From contig JBDNIW010000014.1 of assembly GCA_041688155.1 (NCBI GenBank), positions 9,517 through 73,516 of the forward strand: a stretch of 64,000 nt of DNA, read 5' to 3'. Positions 40,955 through 56,124 of this stretch are shown here, piece by piece; positions within the stretch are counted from its first letter, which is position 1; each line of letters starts with the position of its first letter. Under the pieces are notes generated by a model, which had not been told where the DNA came from, made no database searches, and saw nothing but the letters and a program-made list of their open reading frames with translations. The DNA comes from Minisyncoccota bacterium (GTDB lineage Bacteria > Patescibacteriota > Minisyncoccia > Phycocordibacterales > UBA918). A program made the translations under genes and the position numbers.

Positions 40955-41392
40955 ATGTCAGACACCATTATTACCGCCATCTCACCGGCGGCCGAGAGTA
41001 CAGTCAAGCAGTTGGCACCGCTCTATCAGTCGCAGCCAGCGGCCGGGTTTCCGTCGCCGGGTGATGATCTGGTCGAGCAGCCGCTTGACCTGAATGACCT
41101 GATGATCGACAACCCGACGGCGACGTTTTTTGTCCGGGTGTCCGGTGACTCGATGGAAGGAGCTCGGATATTTGCCGGTGACGTGCTGGTGGTGGATCGC
41201 TCGATTGAGGCTCGAGCGGGGATGATTGTCGTGGCTGCTGTCTACGGTGAACTGGTCGTCAAACGACTACAAAAAACCGCCACCGGCCTGGCTCTTTGCT
41301 CAGAACAAGCAGGATATGAGCCGATTTTGATCGATGACACTGAGGGGTGTTTTATCTGGGGTGTGGCCACCGGCAGTGCACGGGTGTTCTAG
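40955..41392 (+). CDS. umuD: UmuD-like S24 peptidase (translesion polymerase accessory / LexA-like)
   Basis: 'VSGDSMEG' Ser nucleophile and 'VVKRL' Lys dyad; 145 aa. Confidence 0.8.
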   Translation: MSDTIITAISPAAESTVKQLAPLYQSQPAAGFPSPGDDLVEQPLDLNDLMIDNPTATFFVRVSGDSMEGARIFAGDVLVVDRSIEARAGMIVVAAVYGELVVKRLQKTATGLALCSEQAGYEPILIDDTEGCFIWGVATGSARVF

Positions 41393-41433
41393 GTGGACTG
41401 AAAGAAAGCCTCAGCGGCAACGTCATAAGCAGT

Positions 41434-42630
41434 ATGAAAGCCCCTAGTGTCAACCTGACCCTCCACCTGGCCCTGCTCGCGTATCTGTGTGTGGCGTTAT
41501 TTGTGCCGCAGCCGGCGCACGCTGCTAACCTTGACGTCGGCGTCTGGATTCCTTGGTGGGCAGATGAAGCCGGGACCGCCAGTGCGCTTACAAACATCGA
41601 TGACATAGACATCATCTATCCGTTTGTCTATGAGGTTTCCGCCAGTGGCAAACTGATCAATCGGGTTGATTTTAATGATAACCACTGGGAAGAGTTGTTT
41701 GATGAAGCGCGGGACGAACGGGTGGACATTATCCCAACCATCGCCTGGTTTAAGGGGCAGGAGATACACGACGTATTAAGCAGTCGAACTAAACGCAAGG
41801 CGCACATAGCTGACATCGTCGCGATGGTCAAAAAGTACGATTTTGATGGGGTGAACATCGACTATGAATCAAAATTAGGAAAGACAATTGACGATTACTC
41901 CATTTTTCTTAAAGAACTCAACCGAGCGCTCGGGCGGCGTGACTTGACCTGTACGATTGAAGCGAGGACACCACCAGAGTCGCTCTATCACGTCGTGCCA
42001 GCCAACATTCAGTACGCCAACGACTATCAAGCGATCAACCGTCACTGCGACTGGGTCGAAATCATGGCCTACGACCAGCAGCGGGCAGACATCAAGCTCA
42101 ACGACGCGCGACGAGGAGTACCCTACGCACCGGTAGCCGATATCGACTGGGTCGAGAAAGTAGTTGAACTGGCGCTGCAGGACATCGATGCGGACAAGAT
42201 CCTCTTGGGGGTAGCGACCTACGGTCGAGCGTGGGATGTCACTGTCGCACCTGATTGGTACAAAGGCTACCAGTCAGTCGCCTCTCTCAACCAACCGCGC
42301 ATCCTAGAGTTGGCCCAAAAATACAACGCCCCAATTGGTCGGGCTGCGAGTGGGGAAGCGGTTATCAGCTATTTCCCCGATGACTCGGTCTGGCGGGTGT
42401 TGGACGCTCTGCCGACCCCAGCCGGCACACCAAAAGGCTACGAAGCAGCCGCCAAGGCCCTGCTGGTCGCAAACTATGCCAACATTGAAGTCCCCGTGCG
42501 ATTTGTCAGCTGGAGCGACGTAACTGCTATCGGTGACAAATTAGACCTGGCTAAGCGGTACAACCTCAAAGGGGTCGCCGTGTTTAAGGTGGACGGTGAA
42601 GAAGATCCCGGTATCTGGAAGCAGATCTAA
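41434..42630 (+). CDS. glycoside hydrolase family 18 (chitinase / peptidoglycan-hydrolase-like), secreted
   Basis: signal peptide; 'DGVNIDYE' matches the GH18 DGxDxDxE catalytic motif. Confidence 0.8.
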   Translation: MKAPSVNLTLHLALLAYLCVALFVPQPAHAANLDVGVWIPWWADEAGTASALTNIDDIDIIYPFVYEVSASGKLINRVDFNDNHWEELFDEARDERVDIIPTIAWFKGQEIHDVLSSRTKRKAHIADIVAMVKKYDFDGVNIDYESKLGKTIDDYSIFLKELNRALGRRDLTCTIEARTPPESLYHVVPANIQYANDYQAINRHCDWVEIMAYDQQRADIKLNDARRGVPYAPVADIDWVEKVVELALQDIDADKILLGVATYGRAWDVTVAPDWYKGYQSVASLNQPRILELAQKYNAPIGRAASGEAVISYFPDDSVWRVLDALPTPAGTPKGYEAAAKALLVANYANIEVPVRFVSWSDVTAIGDKLDLAKRYNLKGVAVFKVDGEEDPGIWKQI

Positions 42631-42649
42631 CTACAATCCATACCGACCA

Positions 42650-42675
42650 AAACCCGACAAAACGTCGGGTTTTGG
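42650..42675 (+). terminator. rho-independent terminator between GH18 gene and umuC
   Basis: cccgac-aaaac-gtcggg then TTTT. Confidence 0.7.
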
Positions 42676-42687
42676 TATACTAGTTGG

Positions 42688-43938
42688 ATGAAGAAACAAC
42701 CGATAGCGCTCCTTGATTGCAACAATTTTTTTGTTTCGTGCGAACGATTGTTCCGCCCAGATTTGCTGGGCAAACCGGTACTAGTCCTATCGTCCAACGA
42801 CGGCTGTGTGGTGGCACGGTCCCAAGAGGTAAAGGACATAGGAATCACCATGGGTGTCCCTTACTTTCAGATAAAGGACATAATCAAACAGCACGACGTG
42901 CAGATATTTTCGGGTCACCTGGCACTCTACCGTGACGTATCACGCCGTGTCTTTGAAGTCCTGCACGACTGTGTCGATGTGGTGGAGCAATACTCAGTAG
43001 ATGAGGCTTTCTTTGTTATTCCACCCGACACCGACGTCGAGGTATTTATTGCGACCGTTAAGCAGCGGGTAGAGCAGGCTGTCGGCATCCCGGTATCAAT
43101 CGGCGTAGGGTTATCAAAGACACAAGCTAAGTGCGCCGGCGCTCTAGCCAAAAAGACAAACGGGCTACACGTGCTGACCGAGCAGTCGTGGCCAGACGTT
43201 GCGGCGAGCCTTCCGATTAGTTCCGTCTGGGGTGTCGGTCGTGGGTTGTCGGCCAAGTTCACTGGGCATGGGATCAAGAGTGTGGCCGACTTACTAGCGG
43301 CGCCGACCTATCAGATTGGGGTATTGTTCGGGGTAGTAGGGAAGCGGTTACAGGCAGAGTTGTCTGGAACCAGCTGTGATCCAGTGGCGCAAAAACGGAT
43401 GTTACAGAAAAGTCTCATGAGCACCCGATCGTTTGCTACCAGTACGGAAAGCAAGGACGTTTTATACGATGCGGCCGCGTATCATGCGCGACATATTGCG
43501 GCTGACCTGCGGTTGATGGGAGCTGCGGTTGTAGCGTTGCAAGTGTCTATTCGGGCCAGCCGCCACGGGGACTTTTTTTTGCGTGGTGGCACCAGAGAAG
43601 TTGTATTTACCGTGCCAACCAACGACACATTTACCCTTACAAACGCTGCCGAATCTGGGATAGATGCACTCTACGAAGCTGGTGTGCCATATCAAAAAGT
43701 GGGGGTATCAGTGGTGGGAATCACGGCCCAATCAGCCGTCCCGCACACGTTATTTGCAACCGATATGACTGACAACACACCGCTACTTGAAGCCATGGAT
43801 GCCATCAACCTGGCTGCCGGTAGCGAGGTGATCACCATCGGCAGCCGACTCAAAACCAAGTCCTGGCAAGCTCGCTCTGACAGACGGTCTCCAGCTTATA
43901 CGACGCGGTGGTCCGACATCGCCACTGTATCTGCCTAG
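42688..43938 (+). CDS. umuC: Y-family DNA polymerase UmuC/DinB-like
   Basis: 'IALLDCNNFFVSCERLFRPDL', 'SVDEAFF' catalytic carboxylates; 416 aa. Confidence 0.85.
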   Translation: MKKQPIALLDCNNFFVSCERLFRPDLLGKPVLVLSSNDGCVVARSQEVKDIGITMGVPYFQIKDIIKQHDVQIFSGHLALYRDVSRRVFEVLHDCVDVVEQYSVDEAFFVIPPDTDVEVFIATVKQRVEQAVGIPVSIGVGLSKTQAKCAGALAKKTNGLHVLTEQSWPDVAASLPISSVWGVGRGLSAKFTGHGIKSVADLLAAPTYQIGVLFGVVGKRLQAELSGTSCDPVAQKRMLQKSLMSTRSFATSTESKDVLYDAAAYHARHIAADLRLMGAAVVALQVSIRASRHGDFFLRGGTREVVFTVPTNDTFTLTNAAESGIDALYEAGVPYQKVGVSVVGITAQSAVPHTLFATDMTDNTPLLEAMDAINLAAGSEVITIGSRLKTKSWQARSDRRSPAYTTRWSDIATVSA

Positions 43939-44289
43939 CAGTCCTAGGACACGTTATGGACATTTGTACTTAATCCAGTCGAGCTGACAGGTCTTTGACT
44001 TTAAACAAAAACCTAGTAAACACAGGCTCGCAATCAGACAAAGCAGACAGCGTTTTGAGGTTATCAACAGTTGATCTCGGACAGAGTTTCTGAGACAACG
44101 TACAATGCAGGCAGATCAGAAGAAGAAGGTGCCAAAAATGTAACGGCTGAGATTTTCTCTCATAATAAAAAAGATTTGGTAGCCGTCTCCACAGAATCTT
44201 CTTCTGAGCCAGTTCAAGCGTTTAGTACAACGACCACTCGAGCGATAAGTTATTCAACAAAAGAATAAATATACGAAAACATGTTTGTA

Positions 44290-45043
44290 TGCAACTAATC
44301 AAGTTGGTGTTACGCAACCAGTGGTCGCGACACTAGTTGCATATGCAGTTGTGATGGCAACCATCGGGTTCTAAAACAAAGCACAAACAGCTAACCTTCT
44401 AAATGTAGCTAACACTGACTGACTCAGCTCCGTCGGCGCTATCTAGTCACTCATTTGCCTTTACCGTTCCACTAACTGGAGCTACAGCAATTGTACCAGG
44501 TGACACTACAACAGTTGCATTCAATGCATTGTTTAAGGGGTTGGAGACGTAGTAGACGGTGACGAAATTGTAACGGCAAATGGAACAGACGAATCAGCAG
44601 CCGCTACAGTAGTTGGCGCTGGTTCAAACGTCACTGTGACAGGGATTACAGTGACGGCGGGGCAAGAAGTCGTAGTCGCAATTGCAGACACAAGGATTAC
44701 TAACCCTGCTAAAGTTAGGGCTGACGGTATAGGTGACTTGTATGAGTTTACTATCAGCAACGCTAACGATACCGCTAAAACTCGAGTTGTTATCATTGAT
44801 ACAGCTAGGTTCATTGCGCAACAGCTAAATGTTACAACCAACGCACGTCACGGGTTTGTCGTATCAGTCGAAAAAGATGCACCTTTGCAATCATCAACTG
44901 GAGCAGATATTGATGAGTTCGTTGACAGTGCCGATGATGTTGAGCAGACAGTTGTTGGGTTCAAAATTGAAGCCTCATCACTCCAAGAAGCGGGAGATGA
45001 CTGCAATACAACCTTGACATACATTGCCACTCCTAGCTTCTAA
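44290..45043 (+). pseudogene. decayed paralog (A1) of surface protein 49539-50681
   Basis: multi-frame remnants: signal-peptide-like 'VTQPVVATLVAYAVVMATIGF', 'LTDSAPSALSSHSFAFTVPLTGATAIVPGDTTTVAF', and ORF 44636-45043 ending '...LQEAGDDCNTTLTYIATPSF' (vs '...LQEAADDYTATLTYVATPVF'). Confidence 0.7.
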
Positions 45044-45186
45044 CTACTGACAATTAGGCGCAGTAATAAGGTACAAAAGACTTCCTCCGGGGAGTTTTTT
45101 GTTGGTTCCAGAATGTCAGCTGTTAAGAAGCCAATTTGCGTACTGACACCTTTGGTAAACTAGATTATTAGTTATTACTTATTTGT

Positions 45187-46251
45187 ATGTCGATTCTGAA
45201 ACAAACTTTGTCCGTAGGGTTATTCGTAGCTCTTGTGTCTGTCTTACTGCCACAGGTTGGTCTTGCCCAGAATGGTGCAGGGGTGCGTATTTCGCCAGCG
45301 GTGATTGAAGAAACCCTTGATCCGGGTACTACAAAAATATACACATTTTCGGTTGAGAACCTCAATGCAAGTGAGCAGCACTATTCTCTCTTTACTAGAA
45401 ATATTAGTGATGTGGCTCCCGGTGGCGCGCCGATTTTTGCTGATTCCAATCAGGAAGTGACGGGGTTTGATTTGGTAGACTGGATAACTCTGCCCATCAA
45501 CGAATTATTGTTAGCACCCGGTGAGCAACGGTTAATCGACTTTACAATTAATGTACCTGCAGACGCATCACCAGGAAGTCACTTTGGAGGGGTGTTTGTC
45601 ACAGCTGACCCGCCAAAGTTTGAGAATAGTGGAGCTGCTGTCGGGTATCAAGTAGCAAACATCGTTAGTATTCGGGTGTCAGGTGAGGCGGTAGAGACTG
45701 CCAGCATTCGGCAATTTTCGACAGGTAAGTTTTTGTACGGATCACAAAACGTCGATTTCAATGTTCGAATCGAGAACGCTGGTAATGTACTTGTGCGCCC
45801 AATTGGACCACTTGAAATCTACAACTCACTAGGTAAGAAAGTGGGCGACGTACTATTTAACGAGGGTCGCGCTGGTGTATTTCCAGGAAAAACTCGCGAG
45901 TTCGACAACATCACATGGATAGGAGATTCAGTCGGGTTTGGTCGCTACGAAGCAGTGTTGAGTGCTGTGTATGGTGATGATGGTACCCGTAAGACGATGA
46001 GTAGCACAGTGACGTTCTGGGTACTACCGCTCAGTATCATTGGTCCAGCGGCAGCTGTTCTGGGCGTACTTCTGATTGCAACGGTAGTTGGTGTTCGAAT
46101 CTATATCAATCGAGCGTTGGCTCAAATGACAACAGGCCGACGGTTGATCAGTCGAAAACAAAAAAAGACATCCAATACATTACCGTTAGTGGTCGCTATA
46201 CTGACCGTACTAGCACTGTTCTTACTTGCTATGTTAGTACTGTTTGCGTAG
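45187..46251 (+). CDS. cell-surface protein: signal peptide, beta-sandwich (DUF916/Ig-like?) ectodomain, C-terminal TM anchor with basic tail
   Basis: 'MSILKQTLSVGLFVALVSVLLPQVGLA'; C-terminal two hydrophobic helices flanking 'RALAQMTTGRRLISRKQKK'. Confidence 0.5.
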   Translation: MSILKQTLSVGLFVALVSVLLPQVGLAQNGAGVRISPAVIEETLDPGTTKIYTFSVENLNASEQHYSLFTRNISDVAPGGAPIFADSNQEVTGFDLVDWITLPINELLLAPGEQRLIDFTINVPADASPGSHFGGVFVTADPPKFENSGAAVGYQVANIVSIRVSGEAVETASIRQFSTGKFLYGSQNVDFNVRIENAGNVLVRPIGPLEIYNSLGKKVGDVLFNEGRAGVFPGKTREFDNITWIGDSVGFGRYEAVLSAVYGDDGTRKTMSSTVTFWVLPLSIIGPAAAVLGVLLIATVVGVRIYINRALAQMTTGRRLISRKQKKTSNTLPLVVAILTVLALFLLAMLVLFA

Positions 46252-46272
46252 GTTACTTGCTATACTTAAAAA

Positions 46273-46698
46273 ATGGACCAATCACTTTTGTATAGAAGTT
46301 TGCTACGAGTGTCCGTAGTAGTGACAGCGATTGTTCTTCTGTTCCAAAGTGGTTTAGTTGATGATCGAACGACGGTTGTGTTTCTGGATGCGACCGAGAA
46401 CCTGCAGGCGATGGTCGGACTGTCTATGTCGGTTGCTCCAACCGAGATCACTTTATTTACAGCTGAATTAACCAAACGGCAGCAACTTCTCAATGCTCGC
46501 GAAGAGACAATCGCGTCACGCGAGAATGAACTAGGGCTAACTGGGGGATCAACTCAAAACAACACCGAAACTACTACGTATATACTGGCGGCAATACTGT
46601 TAATTCAGCTTATTTTATTAATCTTAAACTATCTATTGGATTATGTACGCTCAAGAGAAAACCAGGTGAATCCAATAGATGGACCGGTTCCAAATTAG
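46273..46698 (+). CDS. hypothetical small membrane protein
   Basis: N-terminal TM helix, coiled-coil middle, C-terminal TM helix. Confidence 0.4.
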   Translation: MDQSLLYRSLLRVSVVVTAIVLLFQSGLVDDRTTVVFLDATENLQAMVGLSMSVAPTEITLFTAELTKRQQLLNAREETIASRENELGLTGGSTQNNTETTTYILAAILLIQLILLILNYLLDYVRSRENQVNPIDGPVPN

Positions 46699-47024
46699 TG
46701 GACTCCGCACCTTTAAGCAGCCTCCATACAGCATAATAGTTACAATGATCGCTTTGCTTACTTGGTTTTCAATGATATGTGCTGCTTTGTTTTTGCTTGG
46801 CTGTGAATCCACAGCCAGCAACAGCTGCAAATATTGGATATTTCAGCGACGTGCTGAGTGATTCTGGATCATCACAGCAAGCAAATCACACGTTTAAGTT
46901 TAGACCTACTATGGCTATTACTCCAGGTTCCTACCTGGAAGTTGACTTTCCGGCAGATTTTATAATTACCGAGGCAACGTCCACTTTCTTGTATCGTAGC
47001 GTCGAGCTATACATCAATGTATGA
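46690..47024 (+). pseudogene. frameshifted N-terminal fragment (A2) of the surface-protein A family
   Basis: signal-peptide ORF (46679-46861) switches frame into 'AVNPQPATAANIGYFSDVLSDSGSS...EVDFPADF', matching 'AEAANVTTFSNTLSDSAPT...TFDAGF' of the intact copy; stops at 47024. Confidence 0.6.
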
Positions 47025-47286
47025 GTTTTACGGAATTGGAAAAAACGCTGATGTCCCACTATCACCCGGCCTTAACCGAGATGGGTCTGTTAACCTGATC
47101 GACTTCTCGATTCTGTTCCTCTGGTGACAACCCTGTGCCGCAAAATCCTCTATGCAACAATATTCAAAAGGCTTATATTTTATTTATTGTAATAATCTGT
47201 TTGGTAGTATGAGTTTGAGTAATCTATCAAGTGCACTCTGTGGGTAAACGCATATTGTGGTTTTGTTACGCGTATAATAAAGTTGC

Positions 47287-47763
47287 ATGGTCTTTCTACA
47301 AAGATTGAAAACTAGAGGTGTTCATAACCAGGACACTAGTCTGTTATCCGAGGTGGAAGTAACTGCAGTAGACGGAATCGCTCAACTACACGTTGATGTA
47401 TATCAGACTGAGCGCATGATCGTTATCTACGCTCAGTCTGCTGGTGCAGACATGAACGATATGCATGTCTCTATCGAAGGTGACGCTGACATCGTCTTGA
47501 TTGAAGGGAAACGAATCCGTCCTGAGTACATCGCCTTTCCGCGCAAAAAACTTACCGGTTCGTACGTAGCGCAAGAGTGTGTGTGGGGAGATTTCTACCG
47601 CAGAATTATCCTGCCAGAGAGTGTCAACATTCAAGAGGCTGAAGCCAAAATTAAGAACGGTGTATTGATACTTTTATTGCCGCTACATAAACCAAATGAA
47701 AAAGAAAAAGTCACGTTACAAGTAAAAGGAGGTCACAAAGATCCAGTCAAGAAACGCAAATAA
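47287..47763 (+). CDS. Hsp20/alpha-crystallin family small heat-shock protein
   Basis: alpha-crystallin domain 'GDFYRRIILPESVNIQEAEAKIKNGVLILLLP'. Confidence 0.8.
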   Translation: MVFLQRLKTRGVHNQDTSLLSEVEVTAVDGIAQLHVDVYQTERMIVIYAQSAGADMNDMHVSIEGDADIVLIEGKRIRPEYIAFPRKKLTGSYVAQECVWGDFYRRIILPESVNIQEAEAKIKNGVLILLLPLHKPNEKEKVTLQVKGGHKDPVKKRK

Positions 47764-47764
47764 T

Positions 47765-48904
47765 ATGACACTACCAACCCAGTTCTTTCGGCCCTTTATA
47801 AAATTATTCACACTAACGGGATTGCTGATAAGTTCAGCCTCTTTCGTCCTGGCGGCAAACTTGGTTGTTTCCCCTGCAAGTGGTGGTTTTTCTGCTGAGC
47901 AGACATTTACAGCCACAGTCCCGACGGTTCCTGGGAGTGATGACTCGATTATTTTTGAAGCCCCACCTCGGCAGCCAGAGTTTGGCTCACCGCTATTTTT
48001 AGATCCTGAGATATGGTACAGAAAACTCGATGGAGTATTTAGCTGGACGTTACCATTTGACGTAACAGCCCTAGCGATTGAGGTGTCAGACGACCCGATG
48101 AACGTCCCTCAGGACAACCCAGATGCAATTGTCAAACCACCAGACGAAGCATTTGTCGTCAGTGCTGAAAACATAAAAGACGGGATACAGTACATCAGTA
48201 TCAACTTTGAAAACCAAGTAGGTTGGGGTGCTGTCCTGAACCGACCCTTAAAAATCGATACAACTGCGCCGCTACCGTTTTTAGTAAATGTAACTCCTGG
48301 TTCATCAGCTGATTTCTTCCCGTTATTGAACTTTAACGCCAATGATGAGACATCAGGAATAGATTTCTACCAGATAACAATCGCTGACAAGGAACCTATC
48401 AAGGTAACCCCTGATGAGGCAGCAATCGGCTATTTGTTGCGGGAGCTTGAAGACGGTACTTATACAGTCTCTGTGGTCGCTCATGACATGGCTGGTAATA
48501 CTCGACAATCGAGCGCAGCGGTGCTGATCACTTCAGGTTGGACGAAGCCAATAGAGGTAGAAGATGCAGGTAGTATTTGTGACTTCTTTACCGGAGCTAA
48601 TATACTAATCTTCTTTCTCTCATTGATGGTTGCTCTTCTGGTTATCTATGTTTGGTACGAACATAAAGTCCTGCACGCCAAAGAGGAAAAACTCAGACGT
48701 GAAACGAGAGAGATTCAAGACCAAATGGAAAAGATATTCTCCGCTCTGCGGGACGAGATCTATGATCAGATCAACCATATAACCAAGCGGAAACGCATGT
48801 CGGCTAAGGAAAAAGAAGCGGTCGAAAGCCTCACCCAAGCCCTCGAAGTCTCCGAGATCTTGATTGAGAAGGAAATCAGTGATGTGAAGTCAATTCTGCG
48901 CTAA
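47765..48904 (+). CDS. surface protein family B (B1, intact): signal peptide, Ig-like ectodomain, TM, coiled-coil cytoplasmic tail
   Basis: 'MTLPTQFFRPFIKLFTLTGLLISSASFVLA'; TM 'ILIFFLSLMVALLVIYVW'; K/E-rich tail. Confidence 0.55.
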   Translation: MTLPTQFFRPFIKLFTLTGLLISSASFVLAANLVVSPASGGFSAEQTFTATVPTVPGSDDSIIFEAPPRQPEFGSPLFLDPEIWYRKLDGVFSWTLPFDVTALAIEVSDDPMNVPQDNPDAIVKPPDEAFVVSAENIKDGIQYISINFENQVGWGAVLNRPLKIDTTAPLPFLVNVTPGSSADFFPLLNFNANDETSGIDFYQITIADKEPIKVTPDEAAIGYLLRELEDGTYTVSVVAHDMAGNTRQSSAAVLITSGWTKPIEVEDAGSICDFFTGANILIFFLSLMVALLVIYVWYEHKVLHAKEEKLRRETREIQDQMEKIFSALRDEIYDQINHITKRKRMSAKEKEAVESLTQALEVSEILIEKEISDVKSILR

Positions 48905-48917
48905 AATAGCTCAAAAT

Positions 48918-48959
48918 AAGTATAACGCGCACTCACATAGGTGAGTGCGCGTTATACTT
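48918..48959 (+). terminator. perfect 19-bp stem hairpin (terminator-like) after B1 gene
   Basis: aagtataacgcgcactcac-atag-gtgagtgcgcgttatactt. Confidence 0.55.
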
Positions 48960-49538
48960 ATACCTGACTGCAAACTCTTTTGAGCTGCGGGTAATATAAT
49001 GTTACCGGTACAAAAAAGTAAAAGAAAATACTACGGTTCTCCGTGATGCGAGTGTTGCATGTTTGTCGCTGGAGTTGATGAGGAGTAGTCCGGTAAACTT
49101 TTTGGTTACCCATTGGAATTATGTCTCCCTGAGCGTGCCGTCAAAAAGAGCGCCTTGTTGTTTTTTTCCACCCATAGACCTCCTTACCAACTCGCATCTT
49201 GCTCTAAAAGAATCAGTGAAAATAACGAAATAGACCCTAATCCCGCAGATTGCCTGGCAATCTGCGGGATTATTTGTGTATAAACAAACTCTTAGTTATA
49301 CGGGCAGCGTATACTGCATATGTATCCGCATTGGAGGTAAACCATTTAGTGATTACCGAGCGTACGTAATTTCTACGTACGCGTGCAGTTCAGCCGACTG
49401 TGTCAAGGTGGGTACGTTTACAGTAATTATTTTATAGCTGGGTGTGGAGACTCAGCTATAGTGAGCTGTAGTAATACAGCTCACCTTGTGACGCACTACG
49501 TCAACAGGTGCTGTGAGCTAAATACAACGTAGAGTACT

Positions 49539-50681
49539 ATGTCACGTAATAACTACGCGTTCACAGTACTCCAAGCAACCGCCGCTGTGGTATGTCTTGC
49601 GATCATTGCATGGTCACTTGGCTTTCCCGTTCTGCAATTCGCAGAAGCAGCAAATGTCACCACTTTTAGCAACACACTGTCCGACTCAGCACCCACTGTT
49701 GTGTCAGACCACATGATCACATTTGACACTCCTACTGGAGTAGCAGCTGGTGAAACTATCGTACTAACATTCGACGCAGGATTCTTAGGAATAAACTCAC
49801 TTGTGTTTGGGGACCTCGATTTGGATATCGAAGGTGTCTATACAACCCTAGCCGCAACTGCCTCAGAAGCTGATTGGGGAGTCGCTGTTTCAGCCACAAC
49901 TATCACTTTGACCTCAGGGACAGGAGTAGTAGCCGCTGGAGATACAGTTACAGTCCTGATTGGAGAGAATGCAACTGGAGGAGTTCCAAACTCTCAGATC
50001 ACAAATCCGTCTGCTGGTTCATACCCAATCAACGTAACAGTAGGTTCCGCTGATTCAGGTGAAACTCGAGTAGCAATCGTAGATTCTGTAGAAGTCACTG
50101 CCACAGTTGACACCATCTTTACCTTTACGGTAACTGGTACACCTGGCGGAACTGACGTAAACGGAATCATCGGTGACACGACCGGAGGAACGACAACTGC
50201 AACCACAATCCCATTTGGTGAGTTGATAGGCGGTACCGCTAGTACTGCTGCGCAGAGACTACAGGTAACCACTAACGCATCTAATGGATTTGTTGTAACA
50301 GTTGCTGTGGACCAACAACTCACATCGTCTAATCTCTCTGATATTGACGGGTTCGCAAACGGATCATATACCTCAACCCCATCAGGTTGGACCGCCCCAA
50401 CTGGGACACTCGGTCTAGAAAATGAGTATGGGCACTGGGGTCTTTCATCAAACGATACAACACTAACTGCAGGTCTGTCTGATCTGTACAGTGGTGGAGT
50501 AAACTTTGTTTCAGCATCCACCACATCAGTTGAGGTGTTTCGACACGGGGGACCAGCAAATGGTTCAACTACTGGTACTGGAAGCGCTGACGTTCTGTTC
50601 AAAATTGAAGTAACCAATCTGCAGGAAGCTGCAGATGACTACACCGCTACGCTGACATACGTAGCAACACCAGTTTTCTAA
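49539..50681 (+). CDS. surface protein family A (A3, intact), Thr/Gly-rich secreted protein
   Basis: signal peptide 'MSRNNYAFTVLQATAAVVCLAIIAWSLGFPVLQFAEA'; conserved family C-terminus 'LQEAADDYTATLTYVATPVF'. Confidence 0.6.
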   Translation: MSRNNYAFTVLQATAAVVCLAIIAWSLGFPVLQFAEAANVTTFSNTLSDSAPTVVSDHMITFDTPTGVAAGETIVLTFDAGFLGINSLVFGDLDLDIEGVYTTLAATASEADWGVAVSATTITLTSGTGVVAAGDTVTVLIGENATGGVPNSQITNPSAGSYPINVTVGSADSGETRVAIVDSVEVTATVDTIFTFTVTGTPGGTDVNGIIGDTTGGTTTATTIPFGELIGGTASTAAQRLQVTTNASNGFVVTVAVDQQLTSSNLSDIDGFANGSYTSTPSGWTAPTGTLGLENEYGHWGLSSNDTTLTAGLSDLYSGGVNFVSASTTSVEVFRHGGPANGSTTGTGSADVLFKIEVTNLQEAADDYTATLTYVATPVF

Positions 50682-50715
50682 TCGAAACTGGACTCTAAGC
50701 TTTGAGTTCTGACGC

Positions 50716-50753
50716 AAAAAAACCTATCTCCCACCACGAGGTGGGTTTTTTGT
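50716..50753 (+). terminator. rho-independent terminator after A3 gene
   Basis: cccacc-acga-ggtggg stem followed by TTTTTTGTTT; A-run upstream. Confidence 0.8.
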
Positions 50754-50787
50754 TTGTAAAAAACAAAACTGACTAATTGGAGCGGGT

Positions 50788-51366
50788 TTGCTTACTTTTA
50801 TCAATTTAAAACCACTGATGAGATTAGATGTGGGTTACATACGTAGCAGCACTGTACCGGCACAAGCCTCATCGCTCTACAATGATCCCGGTATGGCTAC
50901 GATGTCTCGTGGAGATGCCTTAAAGCTAAGTGTTAGACTTGGTGGTTCTTATACTGTTAGGGCAGCGACAACTGTGCCAACACCGGAAGTGATTATTGAG
51001 TATGTGCCGGAGGCTAACACTTCAGCTATACCCCGGATCGAACCAGTTACCCACCCTGATCCTGATGGTTGGTATAACATCGCAACGGCAGAACTCACCT
51101 GGACGCTCCCAGTAGATATAACCACAGTAAGGACGTTGCTAAATGGTAGTCCTTCAAGTGTGCCAACCAAAGTCTATGAAACACCAATCAACTCCATCAC
51201 ACTAACTGATCTAGATGAGGGTGTGTCGTATTTCCATATTCAGTTCCACTTGATTAAGATGATGATGCATATCCCCGTGTTTATGAATTGGTTTCTAACA
51301 GAACTATTCTGGCACGGGGTTGTGCGTTTGGGGTGGGGATTCAAGCAGATGTGTAGACAGAAATAA
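50788..51366 (+). CDS. truncated paralog (B2) of surface protein B
   Basis: 'AELTWTLPVDITTVRTL...EGVSYFHIQF' parallels 'GVFSWTLPFDVTALAIE...DGIQYISINF' of B1; lacks TM and tail. Confidence 0.45.
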   Translation: MLTFINLKPLMRLDVGYIRSSTVPAQASSLYNDPGMATMSRGDALKLSVRLGGSYTVRAATTVPTPEVIIEYVPEANTSAIPRIEPVTHPDPDGWYNIATAELTWTLPVDITTVRTLLNGSPSSVPTKVYETPINSITLTDLDEGVSYFHIQFHLIKMMMHIPVFMNWFLTELFWHGVVRLGWGFKQMCRQK

Positions 51367-55405: not shown

Positions 55406-55427
55406 CTTAAGTCATCGATGACTTAAG
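55406..55427. repeat. 22-bp perfect palindrome CTTAAGTCATCGATGACTTAAG (REP-like, 3' flank of RAYT gene)
   Basis: identical to 36046-36067 and 56103-56124. Confidence 0.9.
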
Positions 55428-56082
55428 TTTCTAATTGGTTGCTGCTGTGGGCTAACTTTGATGATGTAATTATCTGTTTTATATTATTGTTCTGGTTTAC
55501 GGTGCTGCCTAACAGCCCCTTTATTTCCCGGGTTGTAATGATTGAGGGAAAATTCTTGACTTCTTGATAATCAAACAAGCTACTCCAGCGATACTCACGA
55601 AGCACTTGTAGTGCCGTGTTTGGATCTAAGACTGAACCGGTGCGCCATTGAGGGTGTGAATAGTCTAGCGGGTTCAAATGTATGTAATAAGGGATATACA
55701 GAAAATGTACATCTCTATCAATCGGGATTTTTTTGTATTTGCCTTGCCAGACGTAGCCGCTACGTTCGTATTTTTCGTTATAGAATTTAGCATATCCCAT
55801 GTTTAATTTTTTCATGAATAATGAAAGATTCTTCGAATCATTGTCTACTGGGGAGAGTAGCAAATGGTAGTGATTCTTCATCAAACACCAAGCATGTATA
55901 TGCACTAATGGTTCACGCACCCGACCCATATCAGCCCACAAATTTTGTTGGGTTTTACCATTAGGTGGCGACTGTACATCGTTTAATACGTATAGACTGC
56001 GAACGAACCGCATTCGGTCGCTATCGTCGTGTACAATGTCCCGCTTTTCAATTCCGCGATTAAGGACATGATAGAAATCCAT
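55423..56082 (-). mobile_element. REP-associated tyrosine transposase (RAYT; IS200/IS605-like Y1 HuH transposase)
   Basis: 'MDFYHVLNRG...', HuH motif 'MKNHYHLLLSP', catalytic-Tyr region 'RSGYVWQGKYKKIPI'. Flanked on both sides by the identical 22-bp palindrome. Confidence 0.75.
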
Positions 56083-56102
56083 ATACTTAGAATAACACAC
56101 CA

Positions 56103-56124
56103 CTTAAGTCATCGATGACTTAAG
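56103..56124. repeat. 22-bp perfect palindrome CTTAAGTCATCGATGACTTAAG (REP-like, 5' flank of RAYT gene; overlaps uvrB upstream region)
   Basis: identical to other two copies. Confidence 0.9.

What the first reader, a model, noticed from the sequence alone, without database searches (positions are those of the whole stretch)
44290..51366. Surface-protein locus built from a duplicated two-gene cassette (families A and B) with alternating intact and decayed copies
Two unrelated secreted-protein families alternate. Family A: intact 49539-50681, decayed 44290-45043 and 46690-47024. Copies share signal peptide, an 'LSDSAP' region and a conserved C-terminus '...LQEAxDDxxxTLTY(I/V)ATPxF'.

Family B: intact 47765-48904 (Ig-like ectodomain, TM, coiled-coil tail) and truncated 50788-51366.

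Between them lie a signal-peptide/beta-sandwich/C-terminal-anchor protein (45187-46251) reminiscent of DUF916-type anchors of Gram-positive WxL surface complexes, a small membrane protein, and an Hsp20. Long intergenic spacers, hairpins and pseudogenes indicate an actively rearranging surface or adhesion locus. In an episymbiont-like organism this could mediate host attachment and undergo variation. The terminal aromatic residue on the A family C-terminus resembles donor-strand/anchor signals.
Basis: partly seen in the sequence, partly recalled or inferred. Interest (0 to 1): 0.65.

Follow-up and report, generated by a model that had tools for sequence, protein, structure and literature searches.

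The report
Eroded pilus gene cluster in CPR bacterium
This stretch is the worn-down remnant (about 7 kb left of at least 50 kb) of a surface-filament gene cluster shared by many ultra-small Paceibacteria; one pilin gene, one membrane-anchored chaperone-like gene and a previously undescribed structured RNA leader are still intact.

Summary
Family A (A3 intact; A1 and A2 decayed) and family B (B1; B2 fragment) are real paralogues, and the pseudogenes are identical in four independent assemblies.

The interpretation does not hold. This is not a recently duplicated, actively varying cassette. More than 70 Paceibacteria genomes carry one conserved supercluster, and every "copy" in the window has its own positional orthologue there: A1-C-D-A2(dockerin)-Hsp20-B1(cohesin)-7,700-aa giant-fn3-ABC-MacB-625-C-like-357-A3-341-B2(cohesin)-226-251-548-2047. 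The window lineage has deleted or decayed most of it. About 31 kb is gone between B1 and A3.

The A family is remotely homologous to the Pam pilins of CPR bacteria (2026 preprint; NCBIfam NF058581). Protein C is a fold match to WxLIP (DUF916) and to PapD-type chaperones, and carries C-terminal membrane helices.

Best reading: a Pam-like pilus system assembled by chaperone-assisted donor-strand exchange. In intact relatives it is probably anchored through cohesin-dockerin pairs. Here it is reduced to a minimal or dying set.

By-product: a roughly 220-nt 5' leader of A3 with strong covariation and no Rfam match. It lies upstream of the A3 orthologue at all 29 loci that carry the A3 module.

The parts
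44281..45043 (+). A1-psi: pseudogene of the module-I Pam-type pilin paralogue (381 aa when intact)
   Evidence: Aligned to the intact orthologue L008 8728-9873. Lesions: 2-bp deletion in codon 4, TAC>TAA, further 2-bp and 1-bp frameshifts, a 141-bp deletion that removes the linker strand, and a 244-bp deletion. The C-terminal 135-aa ORF hits NF058581 at E = 7.6e-4.
45187..46251 (+). C: intact membrane-anchored protein with two beta-sandwich domains, WxLIP (DUF916)/PapD-like; candidate pilus chaperone
   Evidence: AF2 pLDDT 84.6, two beta-sandwiches plus two C-terminal helices. Foldseek top hits are E. faecium WxLIP 9i25_C/9i1y (E about 1e-11), then CfaA, Caf1M, CsuC, PapD and FimC. The family profile hits EfmWxLIP1 by sequence at E = 5.6e-4. 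Pfam PF06030 gives E = 0.0018 here and is precomputed on many orthologues. The most conserved 12-mer, 148-159, sits at the disordered loop plus last strand of domain 1.
46273..46698 (+). D: small protein with two hydrophobic segments, conserved cluster member
   Evidence: Hydrophobic segments at 4-31 and 98-126. Its orthologue follows C in L008, L010, L037, L038 and L076.
46776..47148 (+). A2-psi: remnant of a 630-aa subunit (pilin-like N-domain + Ig domains + C-terminal dockerin)
   Evidence: Matches residues 7-91 and 560-604 of L008 11551-13443. The intact protein carries Big_6 and Dockerin_1 above the Pfam cut-offs. There is a stop codon inside the signal peptide and a frame change before the dockerin fragment.
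47287..47763 (+). Hsp20, conserved cluster member immediately upstream of B1
   Evidence: Pfam HSP20, E = 1.4e-9. It lies next to the B-type gene at the module-I-type loci across Paceibacteria lineages.
47765..48904 (+). B1: membrane-anchored Ig-domain protein with a coiled-coil cytoplasmic tail, here with an in-frame loss of its cohesin domain
   Evidence: Aligns to residues 1-66 and 188-507 of the 507-aa orthologue. Most orthologues carry Pfam Cohesin plus Big_13. TM segment at 270-300. The cytoplasmic tail is nearly invariant across 32 orthologues.
48916..48961 (.). Perfect 21-bp-arm palindrome after B1; remnant of the B1-giant gene intergenic region
   Evidence: Window 48900-48958, which covers most of the palindrome, is homologous to L008 15574-15632. 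The deletion scar of about 31 kb lies between here and 49238.
49238..49283 (+). Hairpin plus T-rich tail: orphaned terminator of the deleted upstream gene (the 357-aa dockerin protein in relatives)
   Evidence: 17-bp arms. The same hairpin followed by TTTTGTGTATAA occurs upstream of A3 orthologues.
49310..49538 (+). -10-like box (TATACT, 49310-49315) and a structured 5' leader RNA of the A3 pilin gene; no Rfam family
   Evidence: On 21 loci the RNAalifold structure has 42 pairs (after dropping one isolated pair); 33 have changes on both sides. 94.8% of cells are paired against 33-43% in slid controls, and 0 of 500 shuffles reach the observed values. Covariance model R1 hits 49320-49418 at 77 bits, and hits once per locus upstream of A3 orthologues at 29 loci. 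Rfam has no match.
49539..50681 (+). A3: intact two-domain Pam-type pilin (signal peptide, N-domain 39-178, linker 179-197, C-domain 198-380)
   Evidence: AF2 pLDDT 83. 66 of 111 family representatives hit NF058581 CPR_Pam_pilin_C, best E = 1.5e-10, and no other family was hit by more than one representative. The linker and C-domain are the most conserved parts. More than 1,500 homologues are found, and the 120 listed are 59-100% identical. dN/dS against L003 is 0.22.
50730..50757 (+). Intrinsic terminator of A3 (CCCACC-acga-GGTGGG followed by TTTTTTG)
   Evidence: The 3' flank 50682-50757 is 91-93% identical to L005, L007 and L012.
50788..51366 (+). B2-psi: chimeric remnant. The start of the 341-aa membrane-anchored cohesin-like gene (50884-50940) is fused to residues 138-262 of the 584-aa cohesin/Big_13 gene (50872-51249), followed by out-of-frame decay.
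   Evidence: tblastn and blastn against L005, L007 and L012. The two halves meet at about window 50940 but lie about 1.37 kb apart in L012. The remnant is absent from L003.

Best explanation
The locus is the reductively decayed remnant of a large, conserved Paceibacteria surface-appendage cluster built around Pam-type pilins.

In intact relatives the cluster runs: A1 pilin - C - D - A2 (pilin-like N-domain, Ig domains, dockerin) - Hsp20 - B1 (cohesin, Ig, TM, coiled coil) - giant protein of about 7,700 aa - fn3 - ABC ATPase - MacB/FtsX - 625 aa - C-like - 357 aa (dockerin) - A3 pilin - 341 aa - B2 (cohesin, Ig, TM) - 226 - 251 (cohesin + dockerin) - 548 - 2047 aa.

The window lineage keeps only C, D, Hsp20, a B1 without its cohesin, and A3 with its own promoter, structured leader and terminator. 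A1, A2 and B2 are wrecks, and at least 45 kb is gone.

Proposed mechanism (inferred, not shown):
- A3 is exported by Sec.
- The membrane-anchored chaperone C caps the incomplete Ig-like C-domain of A3 by donating a strand. The candidate is the invariant 148-164 segment at the end of its first domain.
- Subunits then polymerise when the conserved inter-domain linker of the incoming pilin (I180-F196, alternating hydrophobic residues) replaces the chaperone strand. This is how the Pam pili of Ca. Mycosynbacter amalyticus are proposed to assemble.
- In intact relatives, the dockerin-bearing A2 has an N-domain and a possible linker strand but no pilin C-domain. Its partner, the membrane-anchored cohesin protein B1, would terminate the filament and tether it.
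- In this lineage the A2 dockerin and the B1 cohesin were lost together, so any remaining filament is minimal, differently anchored, or on its way out.
For: Shown:
(1) Synteny. Every window element has a positional orthologue in the intact cluster. That cluster is conserved at 72 loci of GTDB species-representative genomes, among them genomes labelled Kaiser-, Nomura-, Harrison-, Sung-, Lloyd-, Jorgensen- and Azambacteria.
(2) Pilin homology. 66 of 111 A-family representatives hit NF058581 'Pam pilus system pilin subunit' at E <= 0.01, best 1.5e-10. The only other hits were two unrelated families, each from a single representative. A1-psi scores E = 7.6e-4 and intact A1 scores 1e-4.
(3) Architecture. 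AF2 gives two beta-domains joined by a low-confidence linker. The linker (2.74 bits) and C-domain (2.41 bits; C-terminus 3.13) are more conserved than the N-domain (1.81). The Pam preprint reports the same pattern: donated linker and C-domain groove most conserved (doi 10.64898/2026.03.03.709456).
(4) Chaperone. The fold of C best matches WxLIP and then chaperone-usher chaperones, and it has C-terminal membrane helices as PamC and PamD do.
(5) Cohesin and dockerin domains score above the Pfam cut-offs in A2-full, B2-full and the 251-aa protein and in most B1 orthologues. The A2 dockerin and the B1 cohesin are both lost in the window.
(6) Decay is real and old. The sequence is identical in four assemblies, and the lesions are shared with L003.
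(7) A3 still looks functional. The ORF, leader RNA (77 bits) and terminator are intact, and dN/dS is 0.22.
Against: - A3 itself scores only 13 bits (E = 0.079) on NF058581, far below the 55-bit cut-off. The link is remote and rests on the family as a whole.
- No PamA or PamB structure or sequence was available for direct comparison. Foldseek against the PDB returned only generic tandem-Ig adhesins with low TM-scores.
- Donor-strand exchange, the chaperone role of C and the cohesin-dockerin anchoring are inferences. No complex prediction could be run.
- In intact relatives A3 sits next to the C-like paralogue, which is lost here, not next to C. The retained pilin-chaperone pair may therefore not be cognate.
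- No tip pilin or PamR-like terminator was identified. The B family profile found only generic Ig/Fn3 similarity.
- The missing genes are absent from this 64-kb window and from their syntenic place, but the rest of the genome was not seen.
Confidence: 0.7

Rival explanations
1. One reading: a recently duplicated A+B cassette that is actively rearranging, giving copy-number, phase or antigenic variation of a host-attachment protein. The decayed copies would act as silent donors.
For: Paralogous intact and decayed copies do alternate. The locus shows lineage-specific indels, a putative transposase insertion in L003, and a tract of 95-99% identity to L003 inside flanks that are 68-80% identical. 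That indicates recombination at the locus.
Against: The copies share no DNA-level similarity beyond 77 nt at 73%, so there is no substrate for gene conversion. There are no flanking long repeats, invertible segments or recombinase genes. Each copy is orthologous to a distinct, positionally fixed gene in more than 70 genomes. The pseudogene state is invariant across four assemblies. The decayed copies have lost essential parts, such as the linker strand and the signal peptide.
Confidence: 0.04
2. A non-filamentous, WxL-complex-like surface assembly. C acts as WxLIP does in Firmicutes: a permanent membrane anchor that holds A-type proteins at the cell surface by strand complementation, with no polymerisation into a pilus.
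For: The best structural and sequence match of C is the WxLIP-WxL complex of E. faecium (9i25_C). In WxLIP, a hairpin strand completes the partner's beta-sandwich (PMC10599100). Pfam PF06030 hits family members.
Against: No WxL-domain protein was found in the window or in the intact cluster. The partner family is homologous to filament-forming Pam pilins. It also has a conserved, exposed linker strand with alternating hydrophobic residues, which a monomeric anchored protein would not need.
Confidence: 0.15
3. The whole locus is a dead relic. A3, C, D and B1 are still open only because the deletions are recent, and no appendage is made in this organism.
For: At least 45 kb of the cluster is missing, including the presumed cognate C-like chaperone, the ABC/MacB transporter, the giant proteins and all cohesin-dockerin partners. 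B1 lacks its cohesin. C and Hsp20 show dN/dS of about 0.7-1.0 against L003, although on very few substitutions.
Against: A3 and B1 show dN/dS of 0.22 and 0.14. The A3 promoter region, its 220-nt structured leader and its terminator are all intact. The surviving ORFs are full length relative to their orthologues, while their neighbours accumulated many frameshifts over the same period.
Confidence: 0.15

Closest known systems
Pam pili of Candidatus Mycosynbacter amalyticus (Saccharimonadia); Troman et al., bioRxiv 2026, doi 10.64898/2026.03.03.709456; NCBIfam NF058581 CPR_Pam_pilin_C
   Same: Found only in CPR. Pilins exported by Sec, with an N-terminal beta-sandwich, a conserved linker and a C-terminal Ig-like domain whose family matches NF058581. 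PapD/FimC-like chaperones carry C-terminal membrane helices and are encoded beside the pilins. There are several pilin paralogues per locus and no usher.
   Different: A different class (Paceibacteria; the preprint's text does not mention it). The pilin subfamily falls below the NCBIfam cut-off. C has two C-terminal helices rather than one. The cluster also contains cohesin and dockerin proteins, a MacB-type ABC transporter, an Hsp20 and giant proteins. The ATP-synthase/CorB neighbourhood described for pam is absent. No PamR or PamT equivalent was identified. In this window most of the system is deleted.
WxL surface-protein clusters of Lactobacillales/Bacillales: WxLIP = DUF916 + DUF3324 + TM helix (PMC10599100; PDB 9i1y, 9i25)
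   Same: C is the closest structural match (Foldseek E about 1e-11) and a weak sequence match (E = 5.6e-4; Pfam PF06030) to WxLIP. Both have two tandem Ig-like domains, a C-terminal membrane anchor, and a disordered, conserved hairpin in domain 1 that is expected to complement a partner's sheet.
   Different: No WxL-domain partners and no LPXTG protein. The partner here is a Pam-type two-domain pilin. The organism is a CPR bacterium, not a Firmicute.
Chaperone-usher pili of Gram-negative bacteria (Pap, Fim, CFA/I, Caf1, Csu)
   Same: C has the fold of a PapD-like chaperone (hits to CfaA, Caf1M, CsuC, PapD and FimC, E = 1e-11 to 1e-7). The inferred logic of assembly is the same: donor-strand complementation, then exchange.
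   Different: No usher and no outer membrane. The chaperone is membrane-anchored. The pilin has two domains, and its presumed donor strand is internal rather than N-terminal.
Cohesin-dockerin scaffolds (cellulosomes)
   Same: In intact relatives, Pfam Cohesin and Dockerin_1 domains lie on separate secreted and membrane-anchored proteins of the cluster. The window keeps a dockerin fragment at about 47014-47148.
   Different: No carbohydrate-active enzymes are attached. The modules sit on pilin-like and Ig-domain proteins, which suggests anchoring of an appendage rather than assembly of enzymes. In the window both partners are lost.

Membership tests
Pam pilus system (CPR) | Pilin C-terminal domain matching NCBIfam NF058581 (CPR_Pam_pilin_C) at the curated cut-off of 55 bits | tested here: not met
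   A3 scores 13.1 bits (E = 0.079), A1-psi 19.6 bits (E = 7.6e-4) and intact A1 22.4 bits. Remote homology is nevertheless supported: 66 of 111 family representatives hit this model at E <= 0.01, best 1.5e-10, and the only other hits were two unrelated families from one representative each.
Pam pilus system (CPR) | [quoted passage not shown] | tested here: met
   Hydrophobic segment 5-36. The AF2 model has beta-domains at 41-180 and 194-378 with a low-confidence linker at 181-193. Whether the C-domain Ig fold is truly incomplete could not be inspected.
Pam pilus system (CPR) | Donated linker and C-domain groove are the most conserved parts of the pilin | tested here: met
   Linker 2.74 bits, C-domain 2.41, N-domain 1.81 bits per column over 111 representatives.
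Pam pilus system (CPR) | PapD/FimC-like chaperone with a C-terminal transmembrane helix encoded in the same operon | tested here: met
   C (45187-46251): the AF2 model and Foldseek hit chaperone-usher chaperones and WxLIP. C-terminal helices at 282-316 and 331-353.
Pam pilus system (CPR) | RbmA-like terminator/anchor (PamR) and a tip pilin made of the C-domain only (PamT) | tested here: inconclusive
   None was recognised. B1 has Ig/Fn3-like domains plus a TM segment, but its family profile finds only generic BIg/Fn3 chains.
Pam pilus system (CPR) | Subunits polymerise into a filament by donor-strand exchange | not testable with these tools
   Needs a multimer prediction or cryo-EM.
WxL surface complex (Firmicutes) | WxLIP protein: DUF916 + DUF3324 + TM helix | tested here: met
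   Foldseek top hits 9i25_C and 9i1y. Family profile against EfmWxLIP1: E = 5.6e-4. PF06030: E = 0.0018 for the window protein (below the cut-off) and precomputed on many orthologues.
WxL surface complex (Firmicutes) | Small and large WxL-domain proteins in the same cluster | tested here: not met
   No WxL-domain hit in any window protein or in ten proteins of the intact cluster.
Chaperone-usher pilus | Outer-membrane usher, and single-domain pilins with an N-terminal extension | tested here: not met
   No usher-like family hit in the Pfam and NCBIfam scans of eight window proteins and ten proteins of the intact cluster. The pilins have two domains.
Cassette-based antigenic/phase variation locus (pilE/pilS type) | Silent copies with long tracts of near-identical DNA to the expressed gene; recombination or inversion signals | tested here: not met
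   Only 77 nt at 73% is shared between A1-psi and A3. No long direct or inverted repeats.

The most novel reading that the evidence does not exclude
Paceibacteria (Parcubacteria) as a class carry a conserved appendage supercluster of more than 50 kb. In it, Pam-type pilins are assembled by WxLIP/PapD-like membrane-anchored chaperones and tethered to the membrane through cohesin-dockerin pairs. This would tie together the Pam pili of CPR bacteria, the WxL clusters of Firmicutes and chaperone-usher pili as one ancient strand-complementation assembly principle in bacteria without an outer membrane. Expression of the major pilin would be controlled by a previously undescribed structured 5' leader RNA of about 220 nt. 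The window lineage would be a natural minimal mutant (one pilin, one chaperone) that shows which parts are dispensable.
Probability: 0.35. Interest if true: 0.75.

Novelty: new variant of a known kind. Interest (0 to 1): 0.55.

Why it matters
How ultra-small CPR bacteria attach to hosts is a central open question. The only structurally defined CPR-specific pilus (Pam) was reported in 2026, mainly for Saccharimonadia and Microgenomatia.

This analysis does four things:
- It places a very abundant Paceibacteria protein family, everywhere annotated 'hypothetical' (more than 1,500 homologues), in the Pam-pilin superfamily.
- It defines the conserved gene cluster around that family.
- It points to cohesin-dockerin anchoring and to a link with WxLIP, neither of which the Pam preprint mentions.
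- It yields a covariation-supported candidate regulatory RNA that can be tested directly.

The window itself documents reductive loss of such an appendage, and exchange of the already decayed segment between lineages.

Tried and rejected
- PDB sequence searches with A3 alone and with the 111-sequence family profile found nothing meaningful: only spurious RecA-fusion hits, then none.
- Foldseek of the A3 model against the PDB gave only generic tandem-Ig adhesins (ClfB, SdrG, CfaE, BslA, integrins) with TM-scores of about 0.2. No Pam entry was among the matches listed from that PDB copy.
- The search for related loci with the diverse alignment failed for lack of a conserved stretch. The closer alignment worked.
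- The B-family profile against the PDB gave only generic BIg/Fn3 hits, so a PamR/RbmA relationship for B1 could not be supported.
- Rfam, at gathering and at permissive thresholds, found nothing for the leader.
- No sortase, WxL or LPXTG component was found among the proteins scanned near the locus.
- A 322-aa 'truncated A3' in the protein database turned out to be a different start-codon call on identical DNA.
- The first literature search, for 'Pam pilus', returned nothing. The preprint was found only with variant phrasings.
- A search for cohesin/dockerin together with CPR terms found no paper describing this cluster in the held library.

Full report
**1. What is in the window**

On the + strand between 44.2 and 51.4 kb lie the following:
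- a broken ORF series, 44281-45043 (A1-psi);
- a 354-aa ORF, 45187-46251 (C);
- a 141-aa ORF with two hydrophobic segments, 46273-46698 (D);
- an 81-aa ORF followed by out-of-frame fragments, 46776-47148 (A2-psi);
- Hsp20, 47287-47763;
- a 379-aa ORF, 47765-48904 (B1);
- a 635-bp spacer;
- a 380-aa ORF, 49539-50681 (A3);
- a 192-aa ORF that runs out of register, 50788-51366 (B2-psi).

- A3 against 44789-45040: E about 1e-6.
- A3 against 46788-46964: E = 0.003 (E = 1.6e-4 in the reverse direction).
- B1 against 51058-51249: E = 2e-5 to 8e-5.

**2. The copies are not a recent cassette duplication**

I used the exact proteins and their homologues to fetch contigs. This gave relatives in which the locus is intact. 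In one genome (L008 and L005), in another (L010 and L007) and in L011 the order is:

CAP - S24 peptidase - Y-family polymerase - A1 (381 aa) - C (354) - D (136) - A2 (630 aa; Big_6, Dockerin_1) - Hsp20 - B1 (507 aa; cohesin, Big_13, TM, coiled coil) - a protein of 7,400-7,700 aa - fn3 protein - ABC ATPase - MacB/FtsX - 625 aa - C-like (314) - 357 aa (dockerin) - A3 (389) - 341 aa - B2 (584 aa; cohesin, Big_13, TM) - 226 - 251 (cohesin + dockerin) - 548 - 2047 aa.

I then ran tblastn of all these proteins against the window:
- A1-psi corresponds to residues 46-88, 141-270 and 351-381 of A1.
- A2-psi corresponds to residues 7-91 and 560-604 of A2. About 470 residues are gone and a dockerin fragment is left.
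- B1 corresponds to residues 1-66 and 188-507, an in-frame loss of the cohesin domain.
- B2-psi corresponds to residues 138-262 of B2, fused to a short piece of the 341-aa gene. The two halves meet at about window 50940 but lie 1.37 kb apart in L012.
- The giant protein, fn3, ABC, MacB, 625, C-like, 357, 226, 251, 548 and 2047-aa genes have no match anywhere in the window.

The 635-bp B1-A3 spacer keeps three remnants:
- the B1-proximal intergenic palindrome (48916-48961);
- the orphaned terminator of the lost 357-aa gene (49238-49283);
- the complete A3 upstream region.

That spacer stands where about 31 kb used to be.

A scan of GTDB species-representative genomes found 72 loci in genomes labelled Kaiser-, Nomura-, Harrison-, Sung-, Lloyd-, Jorgensen- and Azambacteria, among others. 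Their gene order is strikingly conserved. The paralogy is therefore ancient:
- A1 and A3 are about 45% identical; B1 and B2 about 29%.
- The only shared DNA is 77 nt at 73%.
- Each 'copy' is an orthologue of a different, positionally fixed gene.

**3. The pseudogenes are real**

The window sequence is 100% identical in three other assemblies: over 16.6 kb to a Logan assembly of SRR9199117, over 12.5 kb to a JGI contig from sample 3300007520, and in SRR5468152.

A nucleotide alignment of A1-psi to its intact orthologue shows these lesions:
- a 2-bp deletion in codon 4;
- a TAC>TAA change;
- two more frameshifts;
- a 141-bp deletion that removes the linker region;
- a 244-bp deletion specific to the window.

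All but the last are shared with the diverged copy L003. L003 also carries a putative transposase after A2-psi (only a weak HTH_38 hit) and lacks B2-psi.

**4. What the proteins are**

*A family.* NCBIfam gave weak hits to NF058581, 'Pam pilus system pilin subunit'. That led to the 2026 preprint on Pam pili of Ca. Mycosynbacter amalyticus. The preprint describes:
- two-domain pilins that polymerise by donating the inter-domain linker strand to the neighbour's truncated Ig-like C-domain;
- PapD/FimC-like chaperones anchored by a C-terminal TM helix;
- a proposed RbmA-like terminator, PamR.

I scanned 111 diverse representatives of the A family (from an exhaustive HMMER search). Of these, 66 hit NF058581 at E <= 0.01, best 1.5e-10. 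The only other hits were two unrelated families, each from a single representative. Intact A1 hits it at 1e-4.

The AF2 model of A3 (pLDDT 83) has two beta-domains with a low-confidence linker at 181-193. Conservation is highest in the linker (alternating I180, V184, V186, A188, V190, F194, F196) and in the C-domain, and lowest in the N-domain. The preprint reports the same pattern for Pam pilins.

The NCBIfam model aligns to the final residue. It is not a sorting signal.

*Protein C.* The AF2 model (pLDDT 84.6) shows two beta-sandwiches plus two C-terminal helices. By Foldseek it best matches E. faecium WxLIP (9i25_C, 9i1y; E about 1e-11). The next hits are the chaperones CfaA, Caf1M, CsuC, CupB2, PapD, FimC and EcpB, together with RbmA.

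The family profile also finds EfmWxLIP1 by sequence, E = 5.6e-4.

The most conserved 12-mer of the family (148-159, SGAAVGYQVANI) coincides with the disordered loop leading into the last strand of domain 1. That is the position of the strand that WxLIP and PapD-like chaperones lend to their clients. The WxLIP part is from PMC10599100; the PapD part is from established knowledge.

*Protein B1.* It has a signal peptide, Ig-like domains, a TM segment and a cytoplasmic coiled coil that is almost invariant across orthologues. Orthologues carry an N-terminal cohesin domain. Its family profile finds only generic Ig/Fn3 chains in the PDB.

**5. Mechanism**

*Shown:*
- homology of the A family to Pam pilins;
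- the chaperone-like fold and membrane anchoring of C;
- cohesin and dockerin modules in the intact cluster;
- massive decay in the window.

*Inferred:*
- Sec export of A3;
- capping of A3 by C through strand complementation;
- polymerisation by exchange with the linker strand;
- in intact relatives, termination and tethering of the filament by A2, whose dockerin would plug into the cohesin of membrane-anchored B1. A2 has an N-domain and a linker-like 'KVTVGPVDT' segment but no pilin C-domain.

The joint loss of the A2 dockerin and the B1 cohesin in this lineage is consistent with their being partners. It does not prove it.

A3 still looks alive:
- the ORF is intact;
- dN/dS against L003 is 0.22;
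- it has its own terminator;
- the leader RNA is intact.

Its neighbouring C-like chaperone is gone, however, so function with C is an assumption.

**6. A structured leader RNA (by-product)**

The roughly 270 nt upstream of A3 is conserved at DNA level in relatives (76% identity). An alignment of 21 loci shows a -10-like GTACAAT box, followed by invariant blocks GGAGGTA, TTAG, CTTCAGCC, GTGGAGAC and AATACAACGTAGAG just before the ATG.

RNAalifold predicts six helices. Testing the 42-pair structure (one isolated pair dropped) on the alignment gave:
- 33 of the 42 pairs have changes on both sides;
- 94.8% of cells are paired, against 33-43% when partners are slid by 1-3 columns;
- 0 of 500 shuffles reach the observed values.

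A covariance model of the first domain hits once per locus, always 110-210 nt upstream of the A3 orthologue. It does so at 29 loci, 11 of which were not in the seed alignment, and it does not hit upstream of A1 paralogues. Rfam 15 has no match.

Function is unknown. Two candidates are a 5' mRNA-stabilising element for a very highly expressed structural gene (an SD-like GGAGG lies near the 5' end) and a regulatory switch.

**7. Dynamics**

Against L003 the flanking housekeeping genes are 68-80% identical (dS above 2). In contrast, 44184-49600 is 95-99% identical (dS about 0.02), and identity falls along A3 from 93% to 79%.

This mosaic indicates recent recombination or transfer of the already decayed segment between diverged lineages. 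A chimeric metagenome assembly cannot be fully excluded, but L003 has its own indels and an insertion. This is the only sense in which the locus is 'actively rearranging'.

**8. Verdict**

The locus is a new, eroded variant of the recently described CPR Pam pilus kind, embedded in a conserved Paceibacteria supercluster that the Pam preprint does not mention and that a search of the held paper library did not turn up. It comes with an apparently novel leader RNA.

Interest is moderate for the window itself, and higher for the cluster-wide picture and the RNA.

Noticed in passing
window 49310-49538 (+); orthologous positions in L003, L005, L007 and L012-L036, about 110-270 nt upstream of the A3 orthologues: Structured 5' leader RNA of about 220 nt for the pilin gene. 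Six helices; 33 of 42 pairs covary; invariant blocks GGAGGTA, TTAG, CTTCAGCC, GTGGAGAC and AATACAACGTAGAG. No Rfam family. Found once per locus at 29 loci and only upstream of A3 orthologues.
   Followed up: yes
window 44184-49600 against L003 3650-10060: Mosaic identity. This tract is 95-99% identical to L003 (dS about 0.02) while the flanking genes are 68-80% identical (dS above 2), and identity declines along A3. This suggests recent exchange of the decayed segment between diverged lineages. There is also an 82% patch inside B1 at 48382-48631.
   Followed up: partly
window 48680-48904 (B1 residues about 305-379) and Hsp20 at 47287-47763: The cytoplasmic coiled-coil tail of B1 is almost invariant across 32 orthologues, far more conserved than its ectodomain. 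Hsp20 ends one base before the B1 start codon, and the Hsp20-B gene pair is conserved across Paceibacteria lineages. This hints at a cytoplasmic partner or a coupling between the two.
   Followed up: partly
window 49539-49652 (A3 residues 1-38): Among close orthologues (59-100% identity) the signal-peptide region is unusually conserved: L11, Q12, A13, A15, W25, G28, F34, A37 and A38 are invariant. 'F[STN][VIL]LQA[TI]A' was one of the two best search patterns. Across more distant relatives it is variable.
   Followed up: partly
window 50682-50757: The 3' flank of A3, including its terminator, is 91-93% identical at DNA level to L005, L007 and L012, although the A3 proteins are only about 66-72% identical.
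   Followed up: no
L003 6635-7570: A 311-aa ORF is inserted between A2-psi and Hsp20 in the related lineage. It has only a weak N-terminal HTH_38 hit, as in IS30-type transposases, and is absent from the window.
   Followed up: partly
window 55423-56103 (-): IS200-like Y1 transposase gene (Pfam Y1_Tnp, E = 3.8e-6) about 4 kb downstream of the locus.
   Followed up: no
window 40955-43938 and orthologous positions in L008, L010, L038, L040, L046 and L076: An S24 (LexA-like) peptidase gene and a Y-family polymerase (IMS) gene lie immediately upstream of the A1 module in several Paceibacteria lineages. In the window a glycosyl hydrolase 18 gene sits between them.
   Followed up: no
L084 6001-6969 = window 49713-50681: JGI annotation calls A3 as a 322-aa protein starting at Met59, on DNA identical to the window. 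This is an annotation difference, not a truncated allele. Another cluster member, P0512, has a frameshifted C-terminus in one JGI contig.
   Followed up: yes
L012, L016, L017, L027 and others (record titles): Many third-party (TPA) MAG records that carry this Paceibacteria-type cluster are titled 'uncultured Candidatus Saccharibacteria bacterium'. Their synteny and similarity group them with Kaiserbacteria- and Nomurabacteria-type genomes, so the labels look unreliable.
   Followed up: no
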